Assembly: GCF_004010195.1 (NCBI RefSeq) | Contig: NC_057718.1 | Coordinates: 103,153,276-103,217,275, forward strand | DNA length: 64,000 nt | Source: Chiloscyllium plagiosum | Taxonomy: Eukaryota | Reading direction: 5' to 3' | In this document: piece after piece, positions 4,865 through 63,976 of the stretch | How positions within the stretch are numbered: position 1 is the first letter of the stretch | Layout: every line of letters begins with the position of its first letter | The notes under the pieces: generated by a model | Database searches by the model: none | The model's input: the letters and a program-made list of their open reading frames with translations, nothing else | What the model was told of the DNA's origin: nothing | Translations under genes and position numbers: made by a program

Positions 4865-5440
4865 CAGGCTATTCAGCCCTGTGCGCTGCACCCCCGTTCT
4901 ATACGATCATGGCTGATCTAGTTTCTGCTTCAACTCCACTTTCCTACCTGCTCTCCATAACCCTCCAACCCATTACAATTTTAAAAACCTGGAGGAAAGG
5001 AGGACTGCAGATGCTGGAGATCAGAGTCGAGAGTGTGGTGCTGGAAAAGCACAGCAGGTCAGACAACATCCGAGGAGCAGGAGAGTCGATGCTTTGGGCA
5101 TGAGCCCTTCATCAGGAATCCTGATGAATGGATTCTGCCTGAAATGTCGATTCTGCTGCTCTTTGGATGCTGCCTGACCTGCTGTGCTTTTCCAGCACCA
5201 CACTCTCAACAATTTAAAAAAACCTGTCTACCTCCTCCTTAAAGTTACTCAATGTCCCAGCATCCACCGCACTCTGGGGTAATGAATTTAACAGATTCAC
5301 CACCCTTTGAGAGACGTGATTCCTCCTCATCTCTGTTTTAAACCTGCTACCCCTTATCCTACAACAATGACCTCTCATTCTAGATTGCCTCACATGAGGA
5401 AACATCCTCGTTTCATCGACATTATCAATCCCCTTGAGCA
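4865..5440 (-). mobile_element. CR1 LINE 3' fragment, interrupted by a PLE cassette
   Basis: ORF 5214-5441(-) SRMRGHCCRIRGSRFKTEMRRNHVSQRVVNLLNSLPQSAVDA matches the CR1 ORF2 C-terminus. Confidence 0.85.
4992..5208. mobile_element. Fold-back PLE family A cassette with two head-to-head degenerate hammerheads
   Basis: Inverted arms centred near 5117 (TTCATCAGGAATCCTGATGAA); imperfect TSD ACAATTTTAAAAACCTG 4975-4991 / ACAATTTAAAAAAACCTG 5209-5226. Confidence 0.8.
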
Positions 5441-5999
5441 TCGTATACCCCTATGTTGACAGAGAGCGTTTGCATGTTGTGAGGTTGCGTCTTCCTGGCT
5501 GAAGGGTCTGGACTGAGGTGTTGTGGTCTCAGAGTGAAGGTGTCAGTCATTTCAGACTGAGGCCGGGGAAGTGTTCTGCCTTGTAGGGTTGAGCATCGTT
5601 GGGGCTCACTCAGTCCCACTGCACTGTTGCCTTTCACACAGGAGGTTGTGGGTTCAGGTCTCACTGCAAGGGTCTGGGCACAGCACTGAGCTCTGGATTG
5701 TGGTTCCAGAGTCAGGTTCTCAAAGACAGGAGGAACCTACAGCTTTACCAATGTGACTTTACAAAGGACAGGGGTTGGAGAAGGAGAGCTGTGTAGACCG
5801 GTTATGGGTAAAATTTACGAAGGGGATCCAACCTTGTGGTGGTGAGTAAGTTAAACATAAAATAAGCCATGAAGCATCTCCCCAGCCCTCATCCTTTACC
5901 ACTCTCTCATACACCCCCCACTCCCAAAAAAACATAGAATGCCTCATCCACATAGACCCATGTCATCTCATTCCCGAAACAAACCCTCTTGGCCCCATC

Positions 6000-6330
6000 T
6001 TTTTTTATTCATTCACAAAATGCAGCTGTCACAGGCTATCTCAGCATTTATTGCCCATCCCTAATTGCCCAGAGGGTTATTGAGAGTCCACCCCATTGCT
6101 GTGAGTCTGGAGTCACCAGACCAAGTAAGGATGGCAGTTTCCTTCCCTAAAGGGTATTAGTGAACTGGATGGGGTTTACTTACAATCGACAATGATTTCA
6201 TCGTCATCATTAGACTCTTAACTCCAGACTTCAATTGAATTCCATCTGCTGTGGCAGGATATGAACCCAGGTCCCCAGGACATTACCTGGATTAATAGCC
6301 TATGGATAGTAGCACTGGGCTGTCACCTCA
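6000..6330 (-). mobile_element. tRNA-derived SINE sharing its 3' tail with the CR1/L2-type LINE
   Basis: Reverse complement of the family at 20970, 27578 and 60915; tail GGGCAATTAGGGATGGGCAATAAATGCTG is shared with the LINE end at 47430-47460. Confidence 0.75.
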
Positions 6331-6377
6331 CTGAAGCTGATGGACTCCCTTGAGGCAACCTATTGGTCACTTAATGG

Positions 6378-6902: not shown

Positions 6903-7390
6903 AGAAGGATGTGGAAGCTTTGGAAAGGGTGCAGAGGAGATTTACTAGGATGTTGCCTGGTATGGAAGGAATGTCTTATAAGGAAAGGCTGAGGGCCTTG
7001 AGTCTGTTCTCGTTAGAGAGAAGAAGGTTGAAAGGTGACTTAATAGAGACATACAAGATAATCAGAGGGTTAAATAGGGTGGACAGGGAGAGCCATTTTC
7101 CAAGTATGGGGATGGCAAACACGAGGGGACACAACATTAAAGTGAGGGGAGATAGACATAAGACAGATGTCAGAGGTAGTTTCTTTACTCAGAGAGTAGT
7201 AAGGGTATGAAATGCTTTGCCTGCAACGGTAGTAGATTCATCAAATTTAAGTATATTTAAGTCGTCATTGGACAGGCATATGGACATACATGGAATAGTG
7301 TAGGTGGGATGGGCTTCAGATTAGTATGACAGGGCGGCACAACATCGAGGGCCGAAGGGCCTGTACTGTGCTGTAATGTTCTATGTTCTA
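6903..7390 (+). mobile_element. CR1 LINE 3' fragment
   Basis: ORF 6911-7210 ALERVQRRFTRMLPGMEGMSYKERL..TRGHNIKV..FFTQRVV; 3' tail GGGCCGAAGGGCCTG..(TTCTATG)n. Confidence 0.9.
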
Positions 7391-7621
7391 TAAGAGCTGA
7401 AAATGTGCTGCTGGAACAGCGTATCATCTGCCGTCATTTCTGCCACCTCCAAACGGACCCCACCACCAAGGATATATTTCCCTCCCCTCCCCTATCAGCG
7501 TTCCGTAAAGACCACTCCCTCCGTGACTCCCTCGTCAGATCCACACCCCCCACCAACCCAACCTCCACTCCCCGCACCTTCCCCTGCAACCGCAGGAGGT
7601 GCAAGACTGGCGCCCACACCT

Positions 7622-7797
7622 NNNNNNNNNNNNNNNNNNNNNNNNNNNNNNNNNNNNNNNNNNNNNNNNNNNNNNNNNNNNNNNNNNNNNNNNNNNNNNN
7701 NNNNNNNNNNNNNNNNNNNNNNNNNNNNNNNNNNNNNNNNNNNNNNNNNNNNNNNNNNNNNNNNNNNNNNNNNNNNNNNNNNNNNNNNNNNNNNNNN
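7622..7797. other. Assembly gap (176 N)
   Basis: Run of N. Confidence 1.
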
Positions 7798-7969
7798 CAG
7801 CACCGCCTTCCTCACCTGCAATCTTCTTCCTGACCTCTCCGCCCCCACCCCAGTCTGACCTATCACCCTCACCTTGACCTCTTTCCACCTATCGCATTTC
7901 CAACGTCCCTCCCCCAAGTCCCTCCTCCCTACCTTTTATGTTAGCCTGCTGGACACACTTCCCTCATTC

Positions 7970-7997
7970 CTGAAGAAGGGCTTATGCCCGAAACGTC
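7970..7997 (+). ncRNA. Minimal hammerhead ribozyme motif
   Basis: CUGAAGA(A)-GGGC UUAU GCCC-GAAAC-GUC. Confidence 0.7.
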
Positions 7998-8860
7998 GAT
8001 TCTCCTGTTCCCTAGATGCTGCCTGACCTGCTGCGCTGTTCCAGCAACACATTTTCATCTCTGATCTCCAGCATCTGCAGACCTCACTTTCTCCTCTATG
8101 TTCTATAAGAGTCTAGTGATGACCACGAATCCATTGCTGATTGTTGGGAAAACCCACATGGTTCACTCATGTCCTTCAGGGAAGGAAACTGCCATCCTTA
8201 CCTGGTCTGGCTTACATACAACTCCAGACCCACAGCAATGAGGTTGACTCTCAACTGTCTTTTGGGTTATCAATGAAGGGCAGTAAATTCTGGTTCAGCC
8301 TGCGATCCCATATCCTGTGAAAGAATTAAAAAATACCATGACAACTCACCAAGTATCCAGGGCAGGCAGACTAATCCCAAGCAGAGATTAAGGAAAATAA
8401 AGTTCAAAGGGGCTGAATCGCATGTTTTGTTGACTCCATGTGATTTGTGTCAAGTGTTTTGGAGGGATTCGCACCACTGGCCCTCACCCCTGAAGTCATC
8501 CCTCCCACCTGAACCTATCCTCAGTGTAGCATGTACAATTTGCTGAATAACTTATCACTCATTGGGTTGGAAGGTGCTCCTCATTTCCTGGGCAGACAGC
8601 CGTGGACAAAGGCTATCACCTTGACTTGACAACCAGGACGAAGCGCCCTCTGCGCCAATGAGCAAGGCAAGGGAAAGCTGGGAGCTCAGAGGGAGTGAAG
8701 AGCCCAAATGGGATGCAGCCTGGTGCAGTCCATCAGCTGGGAGTGTGTTCCTGAGCAGGCAGTGTCTGTACTGTAGTGTTACAGTGAGAGTTACCGGGCA
8801 GCCTGAGATGCAGCATTGAAGCGCAGAAGCATCCTGTCAGTGGATCAGCAACATGGCATT

Positions 8861-10369: not shown

Positions 10370-10810
10370 CTGACACCATGGTACAATACTGAGGGAGAGC
10401 TGCACTGTAGCTAGCACTGTCTTCCACACGAGAAAGTAAGCTGAGACATTGCCTGTTCTTTCACATGAATATAAATAAACTATTTACAAGAAAAGCAAGT
10501 GTTTGTCTAAAACATCCTGGTGTAACATTTGTCCATAAATCATAAGTATAAAAATGTGTCAAACAAAAACCTGAAATTGCTGGAGGAACTCAGCAGGTCT
10601 GGCAGCGTCTGTGGAGAGGGAAACAGAATTAACATTTCAAGTCTGGTATGACTCTTCTTAAGATGAAAAGCAAATCAACTGGTCACGCACATGCTGCCAT
10701 TTGTGGAAGTTTGCCATGTACAAATATGCTGTGTCCTACATGACAGCAGTGAATACACTTTGAAAATGGACACCTTTGGCTGCATAGTGCTACAGATGTT
10801 CTAAGGTTAT
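10370..10810 (+). mobile_element. Degenerate Deu-domain (SacSINE1-like) SINE with a family-B PLE end inserted (about 10560-10665, minus)
   Basis: CTGACAC..ATACTGAGGGAGAGCTGCACTGT head and a tail similar to 14840-15377; the internal segment is the reverse complement of the family B tail. Confidence 0.55.
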
Positions 10811-10869
10811 CAGAGAGTCATGGATTCTCAAATCAATGAGTGTACACGAGACTGAGATTGAAGCAGGCT

Positions 10870-11003
10870 ATTTTGCAGAAGGGTCACTGGTCTCGAAACA
10901 TTAACTCTGTTCCTCTCTCCACAGATACTGCCAGCCTGGCTGAGCTTTTCCAGCAATTTCTATTTCTGTTTCAGATTTCCAGCATCCACAGTTCTTTGTT
11001 TTA
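10870..11003 (+). mobile_element. Penelope-like 3' end, family B
   Basis: AGAAGGGTCACTGGTCTCGAAACATTAACTCTG..CTCTCCACAGATACTGCCAG..TTTCCAGCATCCACAG. Confidence 0.7.
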
Positions 11004-13414
11004 TGTGAGATTGATAGACTTGTGGACATTGATTTTAGACATTCACCTGCTCCTCCTTATGCCCTAATGTTCTACTAGAATCTGCCCTCACCTTGACATC
11101 TGACTAGGCTAAGATAAGTCAAGCTTGACAAGTTGTTGGGTGTAGAACCTCTTTACAATTGGTTGGCTGTAGCGTTCAGAAGGTTGCTGAGCTGACTGAT
11201 GTGCCAGGGGCAGGAACTGGCCGCCCATTAGGTGTCTATAATGCTTGCATTGGCAGAAGAAGCAAAACATCTGCAAAGTGCCATTTCCTCAGAGAGTCAT
11301 TCAACACAGAGTGGACTGCCGTCAGACAGTGAGAATAAAAAGGCATTTCATTGCTTAACGCATCTGAAATATTCAAAAAAACTCTTTATTATCCATTAAT
11401 TATTAAAACTAGCGAATAAAGTATTTTGAAATATCAGTCTTTAGATTTTCTCTCTTTTTTTAATAAAGCTCTTCAAAATGTAACCCTAACCCTAACCTCA
11501 TGGCTTATCAGGTCTGATTGGATAGTGGTTGCTCGATGTTATTTGGAACTGCTCTTAAAATTACTTGCAAGGTAATGTGTCATTTATGAGAATTTTTACA
11601 TCTCCCGGATCCAAGTGTAATTTTCTCACTTCAGCTCATTCAAGGCAAGTGCAATAATGATTTGTTACAGTCGGTCTCCAGTGTTAAGCAATTGTCTGTG
11701 GTAGCCGTCAGGTCTGTGACCTTTTAACCAGTAGGGGGTACACGAAGCATTGGCAACTGAAAATGAGATTGGCCTTGGGAGCCCTTCATTACAGCTGTAT
11801 TACAAAGCTCCACTAAAACAATGGAGATGCATGAGGAGGCTCATATTTCACTCCTTTTAGGCTTTCTTTCAGAAGACATGGGGCTTGCGTCCCTTGCTGT
11901 ACCAACCACGGAACTCCCACCTGTAATCCTGATGTATGTGCTACATATCCTAACGCCAAATCAGGGTCTTAAACCTTTAAAGAACTGATCAGCTTTGGCT
12001 GCCATTTTGGATGAAAATGGCACATCGGTAAGAAATTAAAAATTGCTGGCAGCATCAGGCACAGATGAACAGGGGAGAATGGGGGTGAAATAGGACCAAG
12101 AAGGGAAACTGGGGGCAAAATCAAATATTGTGGAAATTAAAGGTAGTAGAAGGGAGAAGTTGAATCCCATAGAAGAAGGCAAATCTTATTTTTATCAGCT
12201 TTTAAATTTATTGACAGTGACTTTATCTGTGTTTACAGATTTTCCTCTGGCTCTCTGTCATTGAGGATTGTACGTAAGCTGCATTTCTTGCTACTTTCAG
12301 TGCAGGACTATCAGATGTTTTCTTTACAGCTGCATCTCCATGAATAATATTTTCTGTTGCCTCTTCTCTCATTGTTAAGCACGTGCATTTGCAAACTAAA
12401 ATGCTGGCTAACTCACTCAATGTTAAATCTGTCGAACCAGCAGTTTGTGCACTCTAAATGTGAACATTTCACAAAGCTCAAATATCTGAGAGAATAACAG
12501 CCTGAGAAGCATGATGTTATGAGCTTGATTGTTCTTTTCAACTATGATACGCTCCCTGTTTCCAGACAGGATGGTGCTAATGACAGAACTAAAATCTTCT
12601 CTGAAAGTTGTTAATATTGGCAAAGGTTCAGTGATAGATATATGTTGTGTTTCAATTTTGCAAATAGATGATCATGCTATCTTGAAGAGAACAAGAGTGT
12701 TTTTACTTGTAATAAATCCATCTGGCCCCTTTTATTTGAAGATTGCAAACACCAACATGTTTTCTGAATTATCTTATTAATATCTTGGCCTCCCACCCCT
12801 CCCCGCCCCTCAACCACCCACTTACCACTAACTGCCAAATGCCCAGGCTCCTTTTGCTTGTAGCTAGTTAGACAATGCGCATTGTTAAGTGGTTTTGTGG
12901 TTAAAGAATGATCTGATGTTGCAAGACAATAGCCAAACTCCATATCCTAAGGTCAGATGAAAGTAAAGAAATGTCTGGTATTTCGTCACTCACAACCATA
13001 TTTCACTAACAAGAATTTGGCAATTACTCTTTTTCAAGCTCTCACATTGGTTTGAAGGTGAACCATTTCACAGATTACCTGGAACCAAGGACATATGAGA
13101 CAAGATATAGGAAAAGATATGTAGAGAAAGACTTATTTAAGGACTCCGTGTGTACCTTTCATCTCAGTCCCTATAACTTGTCACAAAAATGCAATCATCT
13201 GTTGATATTAACGTGTGCTTTATAGGTTCAAGTTCTTCAAAGAAACTATCATAAAAATTAAAGTTTGAGTTTTGGAGGTGTGTTTGCTGTCCCACTTGAC
13301 CCAACTGAAGATGTGAACTACAGCTGTGACCCAGAGCTACAAAACTCTTGTGTTTTATCTGTAGACCAGTGATCACCGTGCTTTCAATATTAATTATGGT
13401 TGGTACTGTAACTA

Positions 13415-13510
13415 TTCCAAAGAATCATGCTGGACTCAAAACATTAACCCTGTTTCTCTCTCTGCAGATGCTGCCAGACCTGCTGAGTTTCTCCAGTACT
13501 TTCTGCCTTC
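13415..13510 (+). mobile_element. Penelope-like 3' end, family B (degenerate)
   Basis: TGGACTCAAAACATTAACCCTGTTTCTCTCTCTGCAGATGCTGCCAGACCTGCTGAGTTTCTCCAG. Confidence 0.65.
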
Positions 13511-13870: not shown

Positions 13871-15137
13871 AATGGAACATTGCCAAGAAAAAAATGCAGA
13901 TAATACCCCTTTTAATTTTTGCATCAATTAACGCAGTGACTTTGCTTTGATAAAAGTGGATGTAATGGTAGATGGAATTCCACTGGCTTCTCCAGCTGTG
14001 CAGATATGAAGGTGTCACTGATCACACTAATGAGTCCCCTTTTTTTTTATGTGTAGAAACTCATTTTCCTGACTTTGGGACTCGCCATTTATGTAATGTC
14101 CTCACCTTCGATTCTTTCCTGAACGTATAGGGTTACAGTGAATGGTAACGATGGGGAGTGGGCAGCTGGCTTTGAACTCTGCTTGGACCTCCCCCGGTTG
14201 TGAGCTTAATGGTCTCTGTCTAGATGCAACATCCACTAACCAGCTCCCCATGCCACCTCCACCCTGCCTGCCAAGGCTGAGTTAACCTAGTGAAAACAAC
14301 TAGCCGTAAAGGGTAACACTTATGGATGCTTTACTGAAATATGTCCTTCAATTCTCTTCACTAGAAGACAAACAATTATCTTCACTGAAAGATAAAAGAG
14401 AAATGTTTAATCTCCGGGCTGGTGTTAGATATGCAGATAAATCATCCTGGATATTCAGGAAACACTGGGACTCATTAATGCTTCAGATCTAACAATATTT
14501 AACCATTCCAATAATTCACTTGTGACACAAATTTTGTTTTATTTTATCAGTGTCCATTTAAATGCAATCTATTCATTACATTGATCAAACTGTGGTCAAC
14601 CATCTGGTTTGGCTCATGTCAAATTAGCCTTACTGGTCAAAGCAGGCATTATACCAACCGACCTAAAACCTTCAGCTCTATGTGGCTCTCAGACAAATTA
14701 TTAACAGTTATAAGAGGTTTGGAGATCTTTTGGCAAACAATTGTTTCATAAGCTCTGTGTAGCTAAGTGCCAACTATGGCTCAATGGGCAGCACTCGAGC
14801 CTGTGAGTCAGCAATGCTGTAGATTTAAGTTCTAATCCAGGGCCTGACACTCCAGTGTAGTACTGAGGGGGTGTTGTCCTTCATCTGGATTTTAAACCAA
14901 GTTATCCCCTCTCAGGCTGATGTAAAACTTCACCTGGTCACTATTTTGAGTGAAAGCAGAGGGGGTCTGTTCCAGGGTCAATATGTATCCCTCAGCCAAA
15001 AGCACAAAGTGGATGATCTAGTCCTTATCGCATTGTTATTTTATGGGATCAAACTATCTGCAGTTTGGCTTCCATATTTTCCTCCTTACAAACGCAAATG
15101 TGTAATTTAATTGGTTGTAAAGGGTTTTATGGAAGGC

Positions 15138-15321
15138 GAAACTTTATTGCTGGAACAGCACAGCAGGTCAGGCAGCATCCAGGGAACAGGAGATTCAACG
15201 TTTCGGGCACAGGCCCTTCTTCAGGAATCTCCTGTTCCCTGGATGCTGCCTGACCTGCTGTGCTGTTCCAGCAATAAAGTTTCAACTTTGATCTCCAGCA
15301 TCTGCAGACCTCACTTTCTCC
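15138..15321. mobile_element. Fold-back PLE family A cassette
   Basis: Perfect 59-bp inverted arms 15138-15196 / 15225-15283; perfect 13-bp TSD TTTTATGGAAGGC at 15125-15137 / 15322-15334. Confidence 0.9.
15197..15224 (-). ncRNA. Minimal hammerhead ribozyme core closed by a 59-bp helix I
   Basis: Minus strand reads CUGAAGA(A)-GGGC CUGU GCCC-GAAAC-GUU, exactly filling the spacer between the arms. Confidence 0.7.
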
Positions 15322-15424
15322 TTTTATGGAAGGCCCCAAGGTATGAAAAGTGCTACATAAATGCAGTTCTTTCTTTCAGTAATATTTTTGCAAATGAAAA
15401 TGATTAACAGACATGACATCTTCC

Positions 15425-15545
15425 AGTTTGAACTGAACCGTTAACTCTAACTTCTCTTCACAGATGCTGCCAGACCTGCTGAGATTTTCCAGCAATTTCT
15501 GTTTTTGTTTCTGATTTACAGCATCTGCAGTTTTTTGTTTTTATG
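15425..15545 (+). mobile_element. Penelope-like 3' end, family B
   Basis: GAACCGTTAACTCT..CACAGATGCTGCCAGACCTGCTGAGATTTTCCAGCAATTTCTGTTTTTGTTTC. Confidence 0.65.
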
Positions 15546-15679
15546 ATATCTTCCATGCTGAAAGTAGGTTTGCTCTCTGAGCTGCAAGATTCAGTTTCAG
15601 ATGTTTCATCACCATACTAGGTAACATCATCAATGAGCCTCCAGTGAAGCACTGGTGTTAGTGACCCGCTTTCTAGTTA

Positions 15680-17224
15680 CAGTGGAAACCTGATTATCAG
15701 AACGAGATGGGCAGGCACTATTTGGTTTGTATAATCAATTATTTGGAAAATCTATTAAATGCCTTTCCTCTGGGGCTCGGAGTTTTAAAGTCTGCTCCCC
15801 GTTCTGGGGTGCGCGCAAGCCCCCACCCTCAACACCACTCCCCACCAGCCCCAGTCCAGCACCGCCCCCCCAAACCAGTCCAACCCCTGCTGCCCGCTCC
15901 CCAACCTGGTCCAACCCCGCACTCAAGCACAATGCGTGCGAGTCCAACCCCGCCCCCAACACAGTCCACTGCCAAACTCCGCCCACCCCTAGGGCAGCCA
16001 CACTGTACACCAAGACTGCTGCAGTTGTCTTTGTGGGGTAAGTCTCCAAATACCACACACAGAGCCACAGCTACACACACACAAAACTTCTTACAGCAAA
16101 TGTTTAACAGATTCCACGTTTGTACAGGGGAACCTCGATTATTCAAATACCAATTATCCGAAAATCGGATTATCTGAAGGAGATTTCGAGGTCCCGATAG
16201 AAACATTACATCAAAGACGTGTTTCCAACAGTGATCGTGTCTTTTTTTTACAGTGATTAAACAGGCACTGTCTCCAAATGACTGACCTCCCGCCCTCTCT
16301 CGACCCCACCCATTCCCTGTGGTTCTAGAGGGATGTACCCTCCTTCCCAAGATAATCTCTCCCACATTGTCCTGTGCAGGGTAAACGTGGAACCTGTCAA
16401 AAATTTGCAGTAAGAAGGTGTGTGTGTGTGGCTGTGGCTGTGGGTGTGCTATTTGGGGACTTACCCCACAGAGGCAACAGCAGCAGTCTTGTTGTTGGTG
16501 TGCAGTCCAGATACCCCCGAGAGGGGTTGGGGGTGGATGTGGGGTGGTCGGCAGGGGGCTGTGTTGGATGGAGGGGCTCGCGCGCTTTGTGCTGGGGGAG
16601 CGGGGGTTGGTTGNNNNNNNNNNNNNNNNNNNNNNNNNNNNNNNNNNNNNNNNNNNNNNNNNNNNNNNNNNNNNNNNNNNNNNNNNNNNNNNNNNNNNNN
16701 NNNNNNNNNNNNNNNNNNNNNNNNNNNNNNNNNNNNNNNNNNNNNNNNNNNNNNNNNNNNNNNNNNNNNNNNNNNNNNNNNNNNNNNNNNNNNNNNNNNN
16801 NNNNNNNNNNNNNNNNNNNNNNNNNNNNNNNNNNNNNNNNNNNNNNNNNNNNNNNNNNNNNNNNNNNNNNNNNNNNNNNNNNNNNNNNNNNNNNNNNNNN
16901 NNNNNNNNNNNNNNNNNNNNNNNNNNNNNNNNNNNNNNNNNNNNNNNNNNNNNNNNNNNNNNTGGGGGACAGGGTTGGACGGGGTTGTGGAGCGGGGGGG
17001 GGCGGGGTTGGATGGGGCTGGGAGGTGGGGTAGGACTGGATTGGGGGGGCGGTGTTGGGGGCTGGGGCCTCGTGCGCTGGGTGTTGCTGCAGTCTCCTGA
17101 ACGGGGAGCAGAATTTAAAAACTCCGAGCCCCAGAGGAAAGGCATTTAATCGATTAACCAAATAATCGATTATCCGAACGAAATAGTGCCCGCCCATCTC
17201 GTTCAGATAATCGAGTTTCCACTG
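15680..17224. mobile_element. Non-autonomous Tc1/mariner-pogo (Tigger-like) fold-back DNA transposon
   Basis: TA|CAGTGGAAACCTGATTATC ... GATAATCGAGTTTCCACTG|TA. 15680-16122 is an inverted, diverged copy of about 16380-17224. No transposase ORF is visible. Confidence 0.85.
16614..16962. other. Assembly gap (349 N) in a G-rich low-complexity tract
   Basis: Run of N. Confidence 1.
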
Positions 17225-27865: not shown

Positions 27866-28157
27866 TTGTTGGATGAGGACAGAAAGCAACATTTTGGTGA
27901 TGATTGGGATTAATGAGCTCATTAATAGCCATGGCCCTGGCTCAGAATGGTGCTGTGGTAGTGCTCCTCCCTCTGGTCCAGCTGGTCTGGGTTGAAGTCC
28001 TACCTGCTTCAGAGTTGTATCGTGACTTGAGAGACAGTGACCATCCAAATGCACCTCAGCAAGTAGTAATCACCAGTAAGAGGTGGGGGAAGAGGAGGAA
28101 ACTGGTACATTAAGGGGTGGCATGTAGGGACTTTGCCACCAAAGCTGGGTAAGATGC

Positions 28158-28260
28158 TATTCCTGATGAAGGGCTTTTGCCTGAAACGTCGATTTTCCTG
28201 TTCCTCGGATGCTGCCTGACCTGCTGTGCTTTTCCGGCACCACTCTGATCCAAACTCTCT
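28158..28260 (+). mobile_element. Penelope-like family A end with hammerhead motif (28163-28190)
   Basis: CTGATGAAGGGCTTTTGCCTGAAACGTC followed by the family tail. Confidence 0.75.
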
Positions 28261-43025: not shown

Positions 43026-43361
43026 AATCTTCTCACATCCTGTAGGTTTGTTCATTTTTAAGGTTCCTGTTGAGATTTCTCAAGGGATATGTTTTTGATT
43101 TTTGGGCACTATTTTTTGGTTCTCAGGGCTACTTTCTCAATCTTTTAAATTCCTTTATTAGGGGATGCCTTACACAATGACATTACCTTCTGGATTTCTA
43201 TTGTCATGTGTGATATCTGAAAACAACAGAAGCAGAATTAGAAGGATTGATCACATTTTCAATAATTATCAATCCTCCATTAGATTGAAAGCACTAATAC
43301 ACAGGAAAGCAATTGTTTCCTCAGTCCCACAGTTTTCAAATTGGCACAACTAAGGCATTAG

Positions 43362-43570
43362 GAGAAAGTGAGGACTGCAGATGCTGGAGACCAGAGTTGA
43401 AAAATGTGATGCTGCAAAAACACAGCATGCCAGGCAGCATCCGAGGAGCAGGAGAATCGACGTTTCGGGCATAAGCCCTTCCTGAAGAAGGGCATATGCC
43501 CGAAACGGCGATTCTCCTGTTCCTCGGATGCTGCCTGGCATGCTGTGTTTTTCCAGCACCACATTTTTCA
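43362..43570. mobile_element. Fold-back PLE family A cassette
   Basis: Inverted arms around CCCTTCCTGAAGAAGGG; plus-strand core CTGAAGAAGGGCATATGCCCGAAAC at 43482-43506; perfect 16-bp TSD ACAACTAAGGCATTAG at 43346-43361 / 43571-43586. Confidence 0.9.
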
Positions 43571-43675
43571 ACAACTAAGGCATTAGTCAGCAACAAAAGT
43601 ATCTTTTTTCAGAATGACTGGCACACACTTCTACACTGAAATAGCCATCACTTTAAATGCTTTCCATATTGATGA

Positions 43676-44830: not shown

Positions 44831-44857
44831 CTAAGCGTTTTTTTTTTCAGCAATTCT

Positions 44858-46044: not shown

Positions 46045-46385
46045 AATACAGACACACACACACATGCACACACAAATAACAAGTGCAAGTGTATTTCCAA
46101 CTGACTTTGAAAGTACAAACAAAATCTGGAAAACTCAGCAGGTCTGGTGGCATCTGTGGAGACAAATCAGTTAACATTTGTGTCGAGTGACCCTTCCTCA
46201 GAACCCTCTGGTTTGGGGAGTTCTGTAGAAGGGTCACAGAACCTGGAATGTTAAGTGTAATTTCTCTCTCCACAGATGCTGCTCGAACTCCTGAGTTTTT
46301 CCAGCATTTTGTTTATAATTTCAAAGGTAGCTGGAGATACACTTGCAAGTCTCCCTTGCACTTGTTACGTGTGTGTCTGTATGTG
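46045..46385. repeat. Imperfect inverted repeat centred on two head-to-head family B PLE ends
   Basis: Family B minus (46120-46205) and plus (46219-46313); symmetry continues outward through AACAAGTGCAAGTGTATTTCCA / TGGAGATACACTTGCA..TGCACTTGTT and the CA/TG tracts. Confidence 0.8.
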
Positions 46386-46622: not shown

Positions 46623-46670
46623 ATTTACAGCCTATGAATGTTGCCATGTTAACAACCTATGAGAGGGGTA

Positions 46671-47500: not shown

Positions 47501-48095
47501 AAACCCAATGTTTTATTTTGTTGATGTGGTAGAACATATGCTTCCATATGGGAATAGATATGCAGATATTATTATAATATTTGATGCATGATATTTAGTC
47601 TGATACTAGCCTTGGGTCCTGGTCTAATCAGGAAAGGAACCTTTGGGTTAGACTGTACAGATGTCAAGGGGACAGGTTGGCAGTGGGTGTGGTGATTGTG
47701 TAAAATTACAGCTCTGTGGATATATTGCACCTTATCACAGGTTAACCTGACTGCTGGTTTGTCACTGGTTTTGTTTTCAAGGGGCCTGTTTCTCCTATTG
47801 CTGGTTGCAAATTGCTTTTCCAAGACGAAGAGTTCTGGTCGTTTCTCTGGTGGGATTTTCTGATCAGAGGTATTCCCTTCTCAGCAGCTGTTCAGCTTTG
47901 CAGTCCAATCTTGCAGGGGTCCTATTTTGATAGATTGTTTTTTTTTTAAAGTCCATCTCTTCTCCAAATGATTTTGATCTGTTTACTGACCTTCCCTGTG
48001 GCCACAACTTTCTAGGGAGTGGATCCTGATGCTGCCACCATCTTTTATCAGCTTTTATCATGTGCTTCAAAAACAGACTGGTCACAGAAAAGACA

Positions 48096-48320
48096 GAGCT
48101 GAAAACGTGGTGCTGGAAAAGCACAGCAGGTCAGGCAGCATCCAAGGAGCAGGAGAATCGACGTTTCGGGCATGAGCCCTTCTTCAGGAATGAGGAAAGT
48201 GAAGAAGGGCTCATGCCCGAAACGTCGATTCTCCTGCTCCTTTGATGCTGCCTGACCTGCTGCGCTTTTCCAGCAACACATTTTCGGCTCTGATCTCCAG
48301 CATCTGCAGCCCTCACTTTC
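48096..48320. mobile_element. Fold-back PLE family A cassette
   Basis: Minus-strand intact core CTGAAGAAGGGCTCATGCCCGAAACGTC (48160-48187) and a plus-strand copy lacking the first C; perfect 14-bp TSD TCACAGAAAAGACA at 48082-48095 / 48321-48334. Confidence 0.9.
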
Positions 48321-48874
48321 TCACAGAAAAGACAAAGTCAAGAAAAGTCATCAGGCCTAGATTTCAAATCAACATTATTTATTGCACAATCATACTGAAC
48401 ATTGCTTTACATGGCCATCATAAATAAAGTAGACTCTGACTTATATTATTTCAAGACCATGCTATCTTCTTCATGTGTTCACATTTGTGCTCTCCCAATT
48501 GACAGAGTTCCCTCTCATGTTCTGGTTGCACTATATTCTAACTCCGCCCACACTACTATTTATCACCAGAGATGTGCAGCTCCATGATATTATCACAAGG
48601 CTGCTCCGTGGTCCTGAAGCCCTTACACAGCAGTTTGTGATAATCTTTTACCTGATCAAACAGAATTAAAATTCCAATCACTGTTTGGATCGCTGGAAAT
48701 TAAAGAGGATTTGGGATAAACTGTCACAGGTTACAGCTGCACAACACAGCGATCCTTAATTGTAAGCCCAGCTTTTCACCTTGTAATCTGAAACAATCTG
48801 AAAATTACAGTTATTTTGTCATTATCCTCTTTTTAGTCTGTTCACGCTTAGCATGTTACCTTGTTCAGCAGAGT

Positions 48875-49070
48875 TAAAAATTAACCCCAGATTATAGTCC
48901 AACAGGTTTATTTGGAAGCACTAGCTTTCGGAGTGCTGCTCCTTCATCAGGTAGCTCCTTTGCAGCGCTCTGAAAGCTAGTGCTCCCAAATAAACCTGTT
49001 GGACTATAACCTGGGGTTGTGTGATTTTTAACTTTGTCCACCCCAGTCCAACACCGGAATCTCCACGTCA
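48875..49070. mobile_element. Fold-back cassette, probable PLE family C, with hammerhead motif
   Basis: Arms TTATAGTCCAACAGGTTTATTTGG.AGCACTAGCTTTC / GAAAGCTAGTGCT.CCAAATAAACCTGTTGGACTATAA; minus-strand CTGATGA(A)-GGAG CAGCA CTCC-GAAAGC-TA at 48922-48950. Confidence 0.75.
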
Positions 49071-50029
49071 TGGTGACCATCGTTCAGCAAAGATTGCAAA
49101 GTGAGAAGGGAATCAGAACAGTGAAATTGTCAGACAAGGCCAATAGAGAGATTAACCACTCTCTGATTTACAATTGCCAAACGCATTGTAATTCGGACCC
49201 AGTTTTGTTTTGCAATGTTACCTAACTTCTATAACATGACTAATCTGTCCTGCTCCGCCCTCGGTACACCTTTTCATTAAGGCCTGAAGCACATCTTGAA
49301 CACGTAACCGACGACTGGTTAAAGTGCACTCTTCACGATTTACTCTAGTGTCGTTTCATTTTGCCAGAGTGCAGACACGGAACTGGAGGTTGGAACTGAA
49401 AGGCGAGCTTTATTAATGTGGCATGTCACCAGACGCGGACTGGAATATTCCCTGTTAAACCCTCATTCATTACTGAGTGGCATTAGCGACATGTGAAGTA
49501 CACTTGACTCTGTGAGAACAAGCTCTTCGCCCTGGAATAGCTATTAAAAGTTGAACCCCACTGAAATTAGGATTCATTATTTTTTTGTCAATAACATTAG
49601 TGATCGGAACCAACTTTTTGACATTTCACCTTGCAATTTAAGAAAACCTCAAATGGTTTTAGAACATGTTAGAATGTCAGTGTCGTGTTTCTCCAAAGCT
49701 TTATTTGGTTTACAAATTACATGATGCTTACTGACAGTTCCTAAATTGAAAAATTATGTGCTCACTGATTCTGGGAGGCTCGTTTCCTCCCACTGCCTCT
49801 GCAACCCGAGAATCTAAATGCCCAATCTATATTTAATGCAGATTGGAAAATATACTTTGAGTTTGATTTTGGGCTCCAAAAATCGGCCTTTAAGTTCCTC
49901 TATTGATGCAAAGAAGTTGAAGATTGTTATCAGATCTGAAAGGAGCCATGATTCAGTTGGGGATATGATGAGGATTTTTACTGTCAAGAAATGTATCACA
50001 ACAACAGAAAAAAATCAGCAAGTAATCAA

Positions 50030-52487: not shown

Positions 52488-52585
52488 GATGGAATCTGAT
52501 CACTGCTCTCCACCCTATCCCTCCTCACCATGGCAGCAACCCCCTGCTGTGTCTGTACTTACACATCAGGCTGCCTGTCTGCACA

Positions 52586-52780
52586 GTCGAGAATGTGGCG
52601 CTGGAAAAGCACAGCAGGTCAGGCAGCATCCGGGGAGCAGGAGAATCAACATTTCGGAATAAAGAGCTTATGCCTGAAACATCGATTCTCCTGCTCCTTG
52701 GATGCTGCCTGACCTGCTGTACTTTTCCAGAACCATACTCTCGACTTTGATCTCCAGCATCTGTAGTCCTAACTTTCTCC
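52586..52780. mobile_element. Fold-back PLE family A cassette (older, centre deleted)
   Basis: Inverted arms around 52660; degenerate TSD CTGCCTGTCTGCACAGTC / CTGCCCGTTTGCATAGCC (14/18). Confidence 0.8.
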
Positions 52781-52799
52781 TGCCCGTTTGCATAGCCAT

Positions 52800-55600: not shown

Positions 55601-55729
55601 GTACAATTGAAGATAATTGCTTGCTGTTGTAACTATTCAAGCCTGTACAGAAGAAGCTGCTCCACCACCTTTTCCTTCCTGCTTGCTGATTTGAGAAGTC
55701 ACATGACCCTAAATAATCCTAAGCATAAC

Positions 55730-56066
55730 AAAGCATAGACTGGATGATCGCTTTGCAGAACACCTACATTCCCAAAAAAGACCCTGAGCTTCCAGTTGCC
55801 TGTCACTTCTACACCCCACCCTGTTCCGTGGCCAACATCTCTGTCTCAGACTTGATGCAGTGTTCCAGTGAAGCTCAGCACAAGCTGGAGAAACAACACC
55901 TTGCTTCCCGCTTGGCAATTCTTGGTAATCTTAGGGTGTGAGCACCGTTCTCCACGCTTTCCCCCACCCTCACACACCAGGTCTTGTTATCTCATGGTCT
56001 GCTATTACACACAATCCCCATTAGCAGCCATTCATTCTCCCAGGCTGATCATTACCCACTCCTTTT

Positions 56067-56097
<31 letters not shown>

Positions 56098-56260
56098 AGG
56101 CTCTATCTGCACCTGTTGTTTACTCCTTACCCCCCTCCCCCTGTATTTTCCCAGCTGCCATCAGTTCTGAGGAAGGGTTACCAGACCCAAAACTCTGATT
56201 TCTCTCCACAGGTGCTGCCAGACCAATTGAGATTTTTCAGCAATCTGTTTTTATTTATTT
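55730..56260 (+). mobile_element. Penelope-like (Neptune-type) family B: GIY-YIG C-terminus and 3' end
   Basis: RLDDRFAEHL/KKDPELPVACHF..SSEAQHKLEKQHLASRL; then AGTTCTGAGGAAGGGTTACCAGACCC..CTCTCCACAGGTGCTGCCAGACC. Confidence 0.8.
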
Positions 56261-57014
56261 AGTTCCCAGCTTTAAACTCCTCTTAACCATGTCTCCATAA
56301 TGGCTACATGATCTATTTATATATTAATTCATTTATTTTATTCTGAGCATTATGCACATTCAAGTAAATATCATTAATTTTGCCTTTTGTCTGTTTGATT
56401 CTCCCTTTCACTCTATTTTGAGCACAAAATGTACTCTGGGTGGGGGTTTTCAGTGTCCACCACTAAGAGTGACTCGGCAGCAGCACTACTGATCGAGTTG
56501 GTCAGGTGCTAAACTGGGTCTGCAGCAGGTGGTGAGGGAACCAACACGAGGGAAACACATACCTGACTTCATCCTTACCAATCCTCCAGCTGCAGATGTA
56601 TCTGTCCATGACGGTATCTGTAAGCGTGATCACCGTCCAGTCCTTGTGCAGACAAAGTCCCACCTTCACATTGAGAATACCCTCTATCGTGTTGTGTGGC
56701 ACTGTCACCGTGCTAAATGGGACTGACTTCAAACAGATCTAGCAACTCAGGACTGGGCATCCATGAGGTGCTGTGTGTCACCAACAGCAGCAGAATTGTA
56801 CTCCAGCACAATCTGTAGCCTCATGGCCTGGCATATCCTCCACTCAACCATTACCATCAAGCCAGGGGATCAACCCTGGTGCAATGGAGAGTGCAGGAGG
56901 GCATGTCAGAAGCAGCAGTGGATATACCCTGAAGATGAGATGTCAACCTGCTGAAGCCACCAAACAGGAATACTTGCCAAACAGCACAAGCTGCATATGG
57001 TGGACAGAGCTAAG

Positions 57015-57147
57015 AGACCCTGATAAAGGGCGTATGCCCGAAATATCAACTCTCCTGCTCCTCGGAAGCTGCCTGATCTGCTGTGCTTTTCCAGTGCCAC
57101 ACCTTTTGTCTCTGACTCTCCAGCATCTGCAGTCCTCACTTTCTCCT
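57015..57147 (+). mobile_element. Single-arm PLE family A end
   Basis: CTGATAAAGGGCGTATGCCCGAAAT..CTCACTTTCTCC; 9-bp TSD AGAGCTAAG at 57006-57014 / 57148-57156. Confidence 0.85.
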
Positions 57148-57687
57148 AGAGCTAAGCAATCCACAACCAACGGATCAGGTCCTGCCACATCCAGTCACAA
57201 ATGGTGGTGAGCAATTAAATAATTCTCCACAAATATCCCCATCCTCAACAATGGAAGAGCCCAGCACATCAGTGCAAAAGGTAAAGCTGAAGCTTTTACA
57301 GCAATCTTCAGTCAGAAAAGCCGAGTTCATGATCCATCTCAGCTTCCTCCAGTGGTCCCCAGCATCACAGATACCAATCTTCAGCCAATTTGATTCACTC
57401 CGCATGATATCAAGAAACAATTGGAGACACTGGATACTGTAAAGGCTATGTGCCCTGACAACAATAAGCTGCTCAGTGACCCTAACTTGGGTTCTACCAG
57501 GGCCACTCAGCCCCTGGTCTCATTACCGCCTTGGTTCAAAAGAGCAGCTATTCAGAGGTGAGGTGCGAGTGCCCGACGTTGACATCAATATTTTGCAGAC
57601 CAACCTCCCATGCCCCACCTCTTTCTCTAGGAATTGCTGCTCCCTCATTGGCATCAAGGCTGCATTTGATCTAGAGTGACATCAAAC

Positions 57688-60419: not shown

Positions 60420-62030
60420 GTATGTGTTTCCACTGCTTCCCAACATGCCCCCTTGTTCCCCCCTCCCCACCCCAACCCCCTGGCTCCACATCCTATCAAC
60501 CACAACCAGGGTGGATCCTCTATTCAGCAGAAGGGAGAACATGTCAGAGACAACTCTTTGGAAGGTGGCATCATCTGAACAGATACAAAAGAGATGGGGA
60601 ATGGGATGGAGTCCTTACAGGAAGCAGGGTGTGAGGATATATAGTCCAGGTAACTATGGGAGGGGCGAGTTTGCAGTGGATATCAGTAGCTGGCCTATCC
60701 CTGGAAAAGGAAACAGAGATGACGAGGAAGGGAAGGGAGGAGTCAGAGTTGGACCGGCTGAAGGCGAGGGAAGGACTGACATTGGAAACAAATTGGATAC
60801 ATGTGTTTTCTATTTGCGGGTGAGACAGGAAGCAGCACCAATAAACATTGTCAATGTATTGGAGAGAGGGTTGTGGGTCAGATACTGAGTGGGACTGGAA
60901 TGAGGAATACAGGCATTGGCCTGGCGGTATTATTGTGAAGCTATTAATCCAGAGACCCAGGTAGTGTTCTGAGGTCCTTGGTTCAAATCTTGCCAAGGCA
61001 GATAATGGAATTGGTATTCAAGAAAAAATTGGAATTAGGAGTTTAGTGATGATCATGAAGCTATTGTCAATTGGAAAACCCATCTGGTTCACTAGTACCC
61101 TTTGGGGAAGGAGACTGCTATCCTCACCTGGGCTGGCCAGCAATGTGGTTGACCCTTAACTGACCTCTGGGCAATAAGAGATTGACAATAAATGCTGGCC
61201 CAGCCAGTGACACCAATATCCAATGAATTTTTAAAAATCACCCCACAAAGGGACAGCATTAACTGGGACCCATGCAGGGTACCCATAGCCACATCTTTGA
61301 CAAAAGTGAGACGTGTTAAAGGGAAAGTTGCTCAAACCCAGGAGCGGTTCAGCCAGGCAAAGGAGGTCAGTGATGGCTGGGGACAGTTCAGGCCTCCTTT
61401 CATGGAGGAAGCAGAGAGCCTTCAGACCATCCTGATGGGCGATGGGCTGTGTCAAGGGGTTGCATGTCCATAACAAAGAGGAGGCAGGTAGCAGCAGAAA
61501 CTGGAAATTGTGGAACCAGTGTAAAATGTCAGAAGAATCATAACTGGGGAGGGACTGAACACAGGAGGAAGAAATAGAATCAAAATGGAAAGATGTAAGA
61601 AATGAGTGGCACCGGAAGAGGATGAAACAATGGGGCTGCCAGGCTAATCCTGTCTGTGAATTGTAGGGACAAGGCGCAAGCCGCTTTGGGGGAATAATGA
61701 AGTGGGGTGCGATAAAGTGGAGTTAACTGGAGATTCTCAGGAGGACGAAGGGAATCCTTCAGGGATGTCCTCAAAAACTCCTGAAGAGGTCAGACACCAT
61801 GCTGACCCCTGGGAATCCCTGTCTGGTGATTGAACAAAGTGTAGAAGGCTCACTGGGAGACCTCATCGGGAATGCATGGAGGTGTTGGTCAAGGTGTCAC
61901 AGGGAGTGCACAATCCTCCAAGCTGCCCATCTACCCAAGCTTCCAAATCCTGCATGTGACAGAGTGGCTGAATCGCACATTAGGCTCATCAATCACCCCA
62001 GAGAGATGATCAGACCAGAGGAGTTATAAG
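60420..62030 (-). mobile_element. Penelope-like (Neptune-type) RT region, degenerate, split by a SINE
   Basis: IAHQDGLKALCFL..DLLCLAEPLLGLSNFPFN.SHF.Q; MAMGT; LQYIDNV; SDSSLPFLVISVS..ATDIHCK. The extent beyond about 61700 is uncertain. Confidence 0.75.
60915..61235 (+). mobile_element. tRNA-derived SINE with CR1/L2-type tail
   Basis: TAATCCAGAGACCCAGG..GGTTCAAATC..CCCATCTGGTTCACTAG..CAATAAATGCTGGCCCAGCCAG. Confidence 0.8.
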
Positions 62031-62590
62031 AGCTGTACATAAGGAGATAGTGTGATTCACTGCAGGAGAGGATCACCGGATTGATTCCAGCATTGTCAGA
62101 GCTGAGGCAGAGCGGAAATCAATTGCCTGGTGTTCAGAAGCAGGAAGGGGGATCTCATTTTACATTGCAACACACAAGGACTTGACGGCTGAGAGACCAT
62201 CACCTCTGCCATGTTGAGGAGCATAGTCCCCAGTGAGGAATATTCAGGACTGAAATCAGAAGCACTTCCTTCAGTCGGAGGATTGCATACCTTCAGAAAT
62301 TTCCAGCCGGCAGAGCGGAGCATTCTCAGTGCTTGAGACAATTCCAAAGTAAGACTAATTGACTCATGGCCCCTGAGAGATTCAAGACAAATGGGGGTAA
62401 GGCCGGAAAGTAGACTTAAAGTAGAAGATCAGCCCTGAACTGATCAAATAGTCATGATGTCACCTGATGAAGGAGCAGCGCTTAATAAGTTTGTGATTTC
62501 AGATAAACATGTTGAACTATAACTTGGTGTCATCTGACTTCTGACCTTATTATATGTTTTTTAGGCTTGAGGGGCTGAATGGCCTACTTC
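62030..62590 (+). mobile_element. Degenerate CR1 3' fragment with a family C PLE end inserted (about 62455-62548)
   Basis: CAGGAGAGGATCACC.GATTGATTCC..GGGGATCTCATT..AGATCAGCC|GGCTTGAGGGGCTGAATGGCCTACT; the insert CACCTGATGAAGGAGCAGCGCT..ATAAAC.TGTTG.ACTATAAC matches 48960-49035. Confidence 0.65.
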
Positions 62591-63280
62591 ATTGGCCTAG
62601 CTGAATCGCCAAGCTGTCATTGAAGGATATGTTGTGGATCATTGGTCAATCTGTGGGACTCTGTGACCCTCTAGCATGACAAGGGAAGATGGATGAAAAT
62701 TTCTTGGAGTTCTTTGCCTGTTCCATTTGGATTGTACTGAAAGATTAAACACTCTTAATTACAACGAAAACTGCTAGCGCAGGGGAAGATAACTTGGCTT
62801 GATAAATGTTGCCCTTTTTTAAGATAAGTTTGGCGCCTCTCTTAGTTAAACACTAATTCCACTGATAATAAACAGTGATCTACTGCCAGAATGGGCTGAC
62901 TTTAATAGGCGTGTATACTGCCGATATTACAAGTTGTTCTTGGGAGTGAACAAGACCATGAGATGCCAACTTTAGTCCCTTCATTCTGGAAATGTCACAG
63001 AGGTTTGGAAGTTCACCAATGTAAAAGAGGAGAGAGAGAAAGCATTGAGCTGGACACCCAGAACCTGCTGGGTACAATCGATGAAGACAGAAATTTTTAA
63101 AATGTGCTCAGAAAATCATGGTGTAATCAGAACAGAAAATGTGGCTTTATGAATGGGAATATGGACAGATTTATTTGGGGTTTTATTTTGCCTATGTAGC
63201 AAGTGAGGTAGATAAAGAAAAGGCCGTAAGTATGGGACTGAATTTACAGGAATTTGTATGTGGCTTGGATTGTCCCCATT

Positions 63281-63976
63281 ATAGAGTCATAGAGTCATCC
63301 AGCATGGAAACAAGACCCTTCGGCCCAACTAGTTCATGCCAACCATGTTCCCAAACTAAACTAGTCCCACCTGCCTGCTCCTGGCCCATCTCCCTTCCTA
63401 TTCATGTACTTATCCAAATGTCTTTTAAATGTTGTAACTGTACCCATATTCACCACTTCCTCAGGAAGGTCATTCCACACACAATCCACTCTATGTGTAA
63501 AACTGTTGTCCCTCACGTCCTTTTTAAATCTTTCTCCTCTCACCTTAAAAATATACCTGCTAGTTTTGAACTCTCAAAGCCTGGTGAAAAGACCCTTACT
63601 GGTCACTTTATCTATGTCCCTCATGATTTCATAAACCATTCCACCTCCTACATTCCATGGGAAAAAGACCCAGCCTCACTTTATAACTCAAACTCTCTAT
63701 TCCTGGCCATGATTCGGAGATGCTGGTGTTGGACTGGGGTGTACAAAGTTAAAAATCACACAACACCAGGTTATAGTCCCACAGTTTTAATTGAAAGCTA
63801 GTGTGCTTCCAATTAAACCTGTTGGACTTTAACCTGGTGTTGTGTGATTTGTAACTCTATTCCTGGCAACATCCTGGTAAATCTTTTCTGAATCCTCTCC
63901 AATTTAATAATATCCTTCCTGTAACAGGGTGACCAGAACTCCAGAAGAGGCCTCACCAACATCCTGTACAACCTCA
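63281..63976 (-). mobile_element. CR1 LINE 3' fragment, interrupted
   Basis: ORF 63361-63543(-) RGERFKKDVRDNSFTHRVDCVWNDLPEEVV..TFKRHLDKYM. Confidence 0.9.
63708..63854. mobile_element. Fold-back cassette, probable PLE family C (core deleted)
   Basis: Arms AAATCACACAACACCAGGTTA.AGTCC / GGACT.TAACCTGGTGTTGTGTGATTT; perfect 13-bp TSD CTCTATTCCTGGC at 63695-63707 / 63855-63867. Confidence 0.85.

What the first reader, a model, noticed from the sequence alone, without database searches (positions are those of the whole stretch)
4975..63867. Stereotyped ORF-less fold-back ribozyme cassettes with long TSDs: a possible non-autonomous PLE/retrozyme-like unit
Seen: separate 150-250 bp insertions at 4992-5208, 15138-15321, 43362-43570, 48096-48320, 52586-52780 (family A) and 48875-49070, 63708-63854 (family C). 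Each is a hairpin centred on the hammerhead. Most are bounded by a 13-17 bp direct repeat (perfect in four). In family A, one arm always runs to the same terminus (CATCTGCAG.CCTCACTTTCTC), while the other stops about 25-40 nt short, near TTTC(A/G). The same asymmetry appears in the longer copies at 3113 and 7397. Established: PLEs often show an inverted partial terminal repeat at the 5' end. Inference: either every integration makes a fold-back by a fixed self-priming or template-switch step, or a small hairpin RNA is itself the mobile unit. The centres differ between copies, which favours de novo formation at each insertion.
Basis: partly seen in the sequence, partly recalled or inferred. Interest (0 to 1): 0.75.

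Follow-up and report, generated by a model that had tools for sequence, protein, structure and literature searches.

The report
Twin-primed Penelope run-off hairpin stubs
These short hairpins are real insertions made of two head-to-head copies of the ribozyme-bearing end of a Penelope-like jumping gene, a layout already described for this class; they are likely dead-end products formed anew at each landing, and their fixed ends likely mark where the element's RNA begins and where copying starts.

Summary
The seven cassettes are real. Four have perfect 13-16 bp target-site duplications, against 0 of 600 random intervals. The 15138 cassette is absent from a related organism, which holds one copy of the target. 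The arms are pseudo-LTR ends of endonuclease-bearing Penelope-like elements (PLEs); longer copies here carry RT and GIY-YIG pieces. The 30-40 nt asymmetry is the known PLE 'tail', mapped in vitro to two RT start sites, with both target strands extended (PMC11167929). So the layout is known. All centres differ. In 5 of 9 two-armed copies (a sixth weakly) each arm holds bases the other lacks, which favours two separately primed cDNAs over self-priming or a mobile hairpin RNA. In the laid contigs inner ends pile up 4 nt before the hammerhead core (260 and 306 contigs), on an initiator-like A, often after a G; no pile at the cut site is among the rows shown. This likely marks a capped RNA start. 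The scan reported the same on other DNA (90 notes, at least 14 genomes). Known layout, useful mechanistic fossil.

The parts
4975..5226 (-). Family A cassette 4992-5208 with decayed 17/18-bp TSD; tailed arm 4992-5119 (inner end -4), tail-less arm 5119-5208 (inner end -2)
15125..15334 (+). Family A cassette 15138-15321, perfect 13-bp TSD; tail-less arm reaches -4, tailed arm starts at +28 (predicted hammerhead cut); arms identical at 59 of 59; absent from organism B
43346..43586 (-). Family A cassette 43362-43570, perfect 16-bp TSD; inner ends +5 (tailed) and -3 (tail-less), 3-nt overlap
48082..48334 (+). Family A cassette 48096-48320, perfect 14-bp TSD; inner ends -14 (tail-less) and +1 (tailed), 2-nt overlap
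52571..52792 (+). Family A cassette about 52584-52779, TSD 11 of 13; no whole hammerhead core in either arm
48863..49092 (+). Family C cassette about 48871-49070, decayed TSD; core CTGATGA...GAAA only in the tail-less arm; 39-nt tail
63695..63867 (-). Family C cassette 63708-63854, perfect 13-bp TSD, 39-nt tail, no whole core
3097..3823 (-). Longer two-armed family A copy; both arms reach into the GIY-YIG C-terminus; the tail-less arm reaches about 36 nt further upstream and has an internal deletion; TSD 13 of 15
7380..8111 (+). 5'-truncated family A copy: short inverted tail-less arm, RT-EN linker piece with CX4CxxC remnant (7417-7620), gap of N, 3' UTR, hammerhead, pLTR and tail; perfect 17-bp TSD
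7964..8001 (+). Initiator-like TCATTCC (A at 7966 = -4) overlapping a minimal type I hammerhead: core CTGAAGA 7970-7976, stem II GGGC/GCCC, GAAA, palindromic ACGT, predicted cut after 7997
   Evidence: sequence
57006..57156 (+). One-armed family A stub from -1 to the terminus, 9-bp direct repeat
28157..28258 (+). One-armed stub of a family A subfamily starting at about -6 to -4; no TSD found
46111..46330 (.).

Best explanation
Each cassette is a dead-end insertion of an endonuclease-bearing Penelope-like element, likely made when both cut strands of the target prime reverse transcription on the element's RNA at its two neighbouring internal start sites and both cDNAs likely run off the RNA's 5' end before being joined head to head. 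Shown here: PLE origin, insertion as one unit with a TSD, fixed outer ends about 32-39 nt apart, a pile of inner ends at -4, 1-4 nt overlaps at most centres. Shown in vitro for another PLE: two internal RT start sites and extension of both target strands (PMC11167929). Inferred: a staggered cut 13-17 bp apart; the -4 end is a capped transcription start (initiator motif, extra G); some templates were already hammerhead-cut (+28 start); the two short cDNAs fail to jump to the RNA's 3' end and are joined by microhomology. The hairpin would then be a by-product and not a mobile unit.
For: TSDs beyond chance. Empty site: in runs X12 and X9 (organism B, two studies) one contig each runs from 15124 straight to 15322, skipping the 184-nt cassette and one 13-nt repeat. 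ORF pieces tie the arms to RT + GIY-YIG elements. Terminus 8094-8096: 1991 (X1) and 2094 (X12) loose ends with random flanks; inner end 7966: 260 and 306, agreement 0.32. Sister family B shows two piles of outer ends 26-31 nt apart in all 4 runs. In 15138, 43362, 48096, 48875 and 3113 the tail-less arm holds at least 28, 5, 13, 11 and about 36 nt that the tailed arm lacks, while the tailed arm alone holds the tail. The -4 A is the A of YYANWYY in 6 of 8 contexts tested, background 1.2% per site. G precedes -4 in 3 of 3 clear fold-back cases here and in 3 of 3 printed linker rows ending at 7966.
Against: An originally perfect fold-back whose centre was later trimmed unevenly would also leave either arm longer. 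In 4992, 52586 and 7397 the tailed arm is the longer one, which fits self-priming too. The short-arm end is not among the six loose-end rows shown for either DNA run (868 rows hidden); it shows only in RNA run X21 (8055, 178 reads) and in joints (12 and 9 contigs). The 48096 arm reaches -14, beyond the proposed RNA start. Two of the three in-window Gs are also explained by the other arm; 28159 has T there, and the X21 consensus before 7966 ends in T. The initiator contexts are related by descent and constrained by hammerhead stem I; 3113 and family C 62464 do not match. No RNA 5' end was observed (table 6: none). The in vitro work used a Poseidon element; this partner has the Neptune/Nematis-type linker.
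Confidence: 0.62

Rival explanations
1. Self-priming fold-back: one cDNA (or an antisense template, as proposed in PMC3846280) folds back near the hammerhead, copies itself and stops about 35 nt short; the centre is then trimmed unevenly.
For: Arms of one copy are closer than arms of different copies (mean 4.5 vs 9.0 differences in 56 columns; 5 of 720 pairings as close); 15138 arms identical at 59 of 59; centres have short overlaps; 3 of 9 copies fit without trimming.
Against: Needs an unexplained fixed stop at the very place of the second RT start site, and extra trimming in 5-6 of 9 copies, including the young 15138 copy. Close arms are equally expected from two cDNAs of one RNA. The 48096 arms differ at +64 and +77, where one arm matches the 7397 copy and the other the majority (two sites only).
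Confidence: 0.2
2. A small hairpin RNA is itself the mobile, non-autonomous unit (retrozyme-like), copied in trans by the PLE protein.
For: The unit inserts whole with a TSD. In 15138 the junction builds an 8-bp stem I around an intact core (z -4.2), which could help cleavage. An earlier, unchecked note describes an edited hairpin written back into DNA.
Against: All 7 centres differ; the largest opposite-strand joints shown have at most 12 contigs each (49 rows hidden). The tail-less end is fixed, whereas a 5'-truncated copy of a hairpin RNA should end at random there. No head-to-tail array of the unit was seen in the window. Two cassettes have no whole core. No one-strand A-to-G excess in 6 of 6 copies tested.
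Confidence: 0.07
3. Two-sided priming as in the best reading, but on an uncut read-through RNA, with RT falling off at the folded hammerhead; -4 is then a structural stop and not a capped start.
For: Uncut RNA was the main substrate in vitro (PMC11167929); arms pass -4 without a seam in 48096, 3113 and 7397; inner ends scatter from -14 to +28.
Against: The pile is at the far (5') edge of the structure, single-base sharp in two organisms, on an initiator-like A, with a G bias in front.
Confidence: 0.1
4. Assembly or library fold-back artefact.
For: No contig of organism A spans the 15138 cassette; the window has gaps of N.
Against: Flanks are not mirrored; arms differ at 5-21% of sites in 5 of 6 family A pairs with long overlap; TSDs are present; the empty site in organism B holds exactly one repeat copy.
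Confidence: 0.01

Closest known systems
Insertion units of EN+ Penelope-like elements with inverted pLTR, one-sided 30-40 bp tail and TSD (Pen2a_Av, PMC3846280; Fig. 2 legend of PMC8557442; Fig. 1C legend of PMC2377424)
   Same: Head-to-head inverted pLTR, tail on one end only, TSD around the whole unit, hammerhead in the pLTR, RT + C-terminal GIY-YIG partner.
   Different: Here the unit is cut down to the two pLTR ends with no ORF, is very frequent (7-8 in 64 kb), has longer TSDs (13-17 bp vs 8-10 bp in the rotifer passages read), and has a sharp inner end at -4.
Poseidon PAc of Anolis, in vitro (PMC11167929)
   Same: Two adjacent internal RT start sites define the tail; both target strands are cut and extended.
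   Different: PAc is a Poseidon; the partner here has a CX4CxxC linker (Neptune/Nematis type). The passages read do not describe joined head-to-head products. The 130-nt unit here has a stop codon in all three frames in 3 of 3 arms tested, whereas the PAc ORF starts within the hammerhead.
Dual minimal hammerheads on opposite strands in Schistosoma (PMC4209133)
   Same: Minimal type I hammerheads 100-700 bp apart on opposite strands, read there as probably truncated PLEs.
   Different: Noted in one sentence, without TSD, arm or junction analysis.
Non-LTR retrozymes (10.64898/2026.07.22.740005)
   Same: Non-coding, type I hammerhead, related to PLE pLTRs, present in a cartilaginous fish.
   Different: Retrozymes are head-to-tail tandem repeats; these are single head-to-head pairs with individual centres.
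LINE-1 twin priming and cap-derived extra G (extra G: PMC11702581 passage; twin-priming geometry recalled)
   Same: Both target ends prime; an extra G marks run-off at a capped 5' end.
   Different: In L1 the two cDNAs cover mostly different parts of the RNA (recalled); here they cover nearly the same 90 nt from two fixed start sites.

Membership tests
EN+ Penelope-like element insertion | Linked ORF with PLE RT and C-terminal GIY-YIG endonuclease | tested here: met
   7417-7620 is 75% identical to P0002 (RVT_1 E 9e-5, below the curated cut-off; GIY-YIG E 9e-5, above it); both arms of 3113 match its C-terminus. No intact ORF in the window.
EN+ Penelope-like element insertion | Inverted pLTR with a 30-40 bp tail on one end | tested here: met
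   Family A about 32-39 nt, family C 39 nt, family B piles 26-31 nt apart.
EN+ Penelope-like element insertion | Target-site duplication made on insertion | tested here: met
   empty site with one copy in organism B.
EN+ Penelope-like element insertion | Minimal type I hammerhead in the pLTR | tested here: met
   Core, stem II and palindromic stem III read from the sequence, as described in PMC4209133. Rfam gave no hammerhead match. Cleavage not tested.
Neptune/Nematis clades | CX2-5CxxC motif in the RT-EN linker (PMC8557442) | tested here: met
   P0002 has CNRRKCYTC; the window copy has CNRRRCKTG, last Cys lost.
Neptune/Nematis clades | Placement by RT phylogeny | not tested
   No reference set of named PLE RTs was fetched; no tree built.
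Non-LTR retrozyme | Head-to-tail tandem units, each with a hammerhead | tested here: not met
   Family A copies in the window lie 1.4-15 kb apart; pairs are inverted. 'Goes back' joints 8095 to 7966 have unknown spacing and can be the DNA between separate copies.
Non-LTR retrozyme | Discrete monomeric or circular RNA | not testable with these tools
   Only a polyA single-cell run was laid (2% read); no small-RNA or RNase R library was listed.
Non-autonomous hairpin family (own lineage) | Copies share one centre junction | tested here: not met
   7 of 7 centres differ in the window; genome-wide only the top joint rows were visible.

The most novel reading that the evidence does not exclude
PLE RNA works like a retroviral genome with a short terminal repeat. 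It starts capped at an initiator 4 nt before the hammerhead core and ends at the hammerhead cut in the downstream pLTR, so -4..+27 is present at both ends. A dimeric RT-EN primes a short 'strong-stop' cDNA from each target strand at two fixed sites; a jump across the repeat gives full or tandem elements, and two failed jumps give these hairpins. Four linker rows joining 7997-8000 to 7966-7967 (depth 44-90; joint kind not printed) would be mis-registered jumps or arms starting at the cut.
Probability: 0.3. Interest if true: 0.7.

Novelty: new variant of a known kind. Interest (0 to 1): 0.38.

Why it matters
How PLEs make their tandem and inverted pseudo-LTRs is called undefined in PMC8557442. 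If the reading holds, these very common stubs record the two RT start sites, the RNA's 5' end and the joining step, so the in vitro result for one lizard element becomes testable in vivo, and the hammerhead gets a defined place in the cycle. In practice such stubs can be mis-filed as MITEs or a new ribozyme element, and they put 50-90 bp inverted repeats into host transcripts. The layout itself is known and the scan has met it often, which limits the surprise.

Tried and rejected
No whole genome is held, so no genome-wide table of copies could be made. Rfam: 0 matches at gathering score in the window; 6 chance-level matches and no hammerhead at E up to 10 on 7900-8120. Family patterns: 0 hits in viral contigs, 0 in prokaryote genomes, 0 then 14 in metagenomes; all 14 match over 19-25 nt only and are chance. 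No RNA holder listed for 43000-49400; this is no evidence either way. RNA run X21 showed no pile of molecule starts or ends, but the library type cannot show small or circular RNA. ADAR scar, a lead from earlier notes: no one-strand A-to-G excess in 6 of 6 copies. Hammerhead cut as the main inner end: only 15138 (and roughly 63708) fits, and 7998 is not among the loose-end rows shown. The automatic junction walk over-ran at 4992 and 43362; those two were read by exact match. One translated piece of the 3113 copy was left out of the Pfam scan because it has a stop; tblastn covered it. Paper searches that found no description of ORF-less head-to-head PLE stubs; subscription journals, Repbase and Dfam are not covered, and no supplements were read.
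Full report
Setting. The window looks like cartilaginous-fish DNA: the named best hits of a protein piece are from Rhincodon typus and Chiloscyllium punctatum. No whole genome is held. Family A coordinates below use 0 for the first C of the hammerhead core (window 7970).

Observation. All seven fold-backs are present. Perfect direct repeats flank 4 of 7 (13, 16, 14, 13 bp); the other three are decayed. Of 600 random intervals of 150-250 bp searched with the same slack, none gave a perfect repeat of 13 bp or more. Tailed arms of family A end at +121 to +125 and tail-less arms at +86 to +92, also in the longer copies 3113 and 7397. Family C has a 39-nt tail in both copies. The centres are near, not on, the hammerhead. 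Inner ends (tailed / tail-less) are -4/-2 (4992), +28/-4 (15138), +5/-3 (43362), +1/-14 (48096) and about +6/+12 to +18 (52586). Four of these five centres overlap by 1-4 nt. Variants private to one copy and shared by its arms number 4 (15138), 3 (43362) and 0 in the other four copies tested, including 48096; 4 of 72 cross-copy arm pairs share one such variant. Within-copy differences sum to 27 over six copies, reached by 5 of 720 pairings; the between-copy mean is 9.0 per 56 columns.

A real insertion. Laying contigs of four runs on 14880-15560 gave an empty site. In X12 and X9 (organism B, studies P4 and P3) one contig each matches 14883-15124 and continues without a gap at 15322-15470, with 10 differences in 391 bases. 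The 197 skipped bases are the 184-nt cassette plus one 13-nt repeat. Both arms therefore arrived together with a TSD, most simply after A and B split; this fits the identical arms. No contig of organism A bridges the cassette, and X1 may be the assembly's own sample.

What the arms are. The 7397 copy continues upstream into a reading frame 75% identical to P0002, and both arms of 3113 match its C-terminus. P0002 has RVT_1 and GIY-YIG matches and a CX4CxxC linker motif, which PMC8557442 assigns to the Neptune and Nematis clades; I built no tree. The motif at 7970 has the parts of a minimal type I hammerhead described in PMC4209133; Rfam does not detect it. By analogy the cut lies after +27.

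Ends across the genome. I laid X1, X12 and the RNA run X21 on the one-armed stretch 7800-8140 (80778 and 57533 contigs, 3156 reads; only 18 of 886 loose-end rows are shown, and X1 was partly uncounted). The terminus 8094-8096 has 1991 and 2094 loose ends with random flanks. A second pile lies before 7966 (-4): 260 and 306 contigs, agreement 0.32, and 175 RNA reads. The short-arm end is not among the rows shown for the DNA runs, perhaps because this reference differs from other subfamilies at 8052-8058; it appears at 8055 in X21 (178 reads) and in joints (12 and 9 contigs). The sister family B copy that lay shows two piles of outer ends, 15505-15510 and 15536, in 4 of 4 runs.

Mechanism. PMC11167929 (parts 1-2 of 4 read) shows that a lizard PLE protein cuts and extends both target strands and starts reverse transcription at two adjacent internal sites whose spacing is the tail. 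Two cDNAs primed from the two 3' ends of a staggered cut give exactly a head-to-head, tail-out pair inside a TSD (inference). A single cDNA folding back cannot supply both the tail on one arm and extra upstream bases on the other, yet that is seen in 15138 (28 nt), 43362 (5), 48096 (13), 48875 (11), 3113 (about 36) and weakly 63708; it is not seen in 4992, 52586 or 7397. Uneven later trimming of a perfect palindrome remains a way out for self-priming, which PMC3846280 (passages and Discussion read) proposed. The -4 base is the A of an initiator-like YYANWYY in 6 of 8 contexts tested in families A, B and C, background 1.2% per site; these contexts are related and not independent. A G that the upstream template lacks precedes -4 at 4992, 15138 and 46219, in the DNA loose-end consensus of both organisms, and in 3 of 3 linker rows ending at 7966. 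Against this, two in-window Gs can come from the other arm, 28159 has T, and the RNA consensus ends in T. An extra G marks capped full-length L1 insertions (PMC11702581, passage). I infer run-off at a capped RNA start. The 15138 tailed arm starts at the predicted cut, and four linker rows join 7997-8000 to 7966-7967, so cut RNA ends may also be used; the kind of those joints is not printed.

RNA. In X21 (polyA single-cell, 2% read) reads lie on both strands, 92% run on into unlike sequence, and no pile of starts or ends is listed. This fits passive read-through and cannot test small or circular RNA.

Comparison and novelty. Inverted pLTR, one-sided tail and TSD are in print (PMC3846280; PMC8557442 passages; PMC2377424 passages), and opposite-strand hammerhead pairs are noted in PMC4209133 (parts 1-2 of 4 read). 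Retrozymes are tandem (10.64898/2026.07.22.740005, part 1 and passages), which these are not. My searches found no paper on ORF-less head-to-head stubs or on the -4 end; Repbase, Dfam, subscription journals and supplements were not seen. Earlier notes of this scan report the same class widely (90 notes in at least 14 genomes), including two-sided priming and the capped start. I had written the twin-priming reading and the initiator and capped-start reading before seeing the notes on each; they are unchecked and are not counted as support.

Verdict. Real, a minimal form of a known PLE insertion layout, likely formed anew at each site by two-sided priming and run-off. Not a new mobile RNA on present evidence. 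Interest 0.38.

Noticed in passing
window 10566-11005: Family B two-armed copy with the same tail asymmetry but about 200 nt of other sequence between the arms, with no second copy in the window; no TSD found.
   Followed up: partly
window 3883-4020, 13430-13504, 15435-15541, 21436-21550, 50029-50152, 56163-56252: More family B pLTR stubs; 56163 lies downstream of a GIY-YIG piece at 55728-55923, which ties family B to a PLE as well.
   Followed up: partly
window 60599-61443 (- strand): Decayed PLE RT-coding pieces matching P0002 residues 10-184.
   Followed up: no
window 15180-15232 (- strand): The junction of the 15138 cassette builds an 8-bp stem I around an intact hammerhead core (-19 kcal/mol, z -4.2), stronger than the 2-4 bp native stem; a chance gain of a better-folded ribozyme is possible.
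   Followed up: partly
window 7800-8140, run X21: RNA reads show 15 A>G places against 5 and 4 in the DNA runs, but other change types also rise (C>T 22 vs 12, A>T 7 vs 3); a weak hint of editing at most.
   Followed up: no
window 1300-2960: Decayed LINE with an RVT_1 match (E 2.5e-14, 1702-2412), unrelated to the cassettes.
   Followed up: no
window 16007-16495 and 22248-22886: Two other inverted-repeat elements (77-nt arms at 88%, 53-nt arms at 98%), probably MITE-like DNA elements.
   Followed up: no
window 85-212 and 62462-62548: One-armed copies: a family A subfamily with a different tail and a 12-nt deletion after the hammerhead, and an old family C stub.
   Followed up: no
window 43755-43913 and 45246-45404: 159-nt direct repeat at 99% identity, 1491 nt apart.
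   Followed up: no
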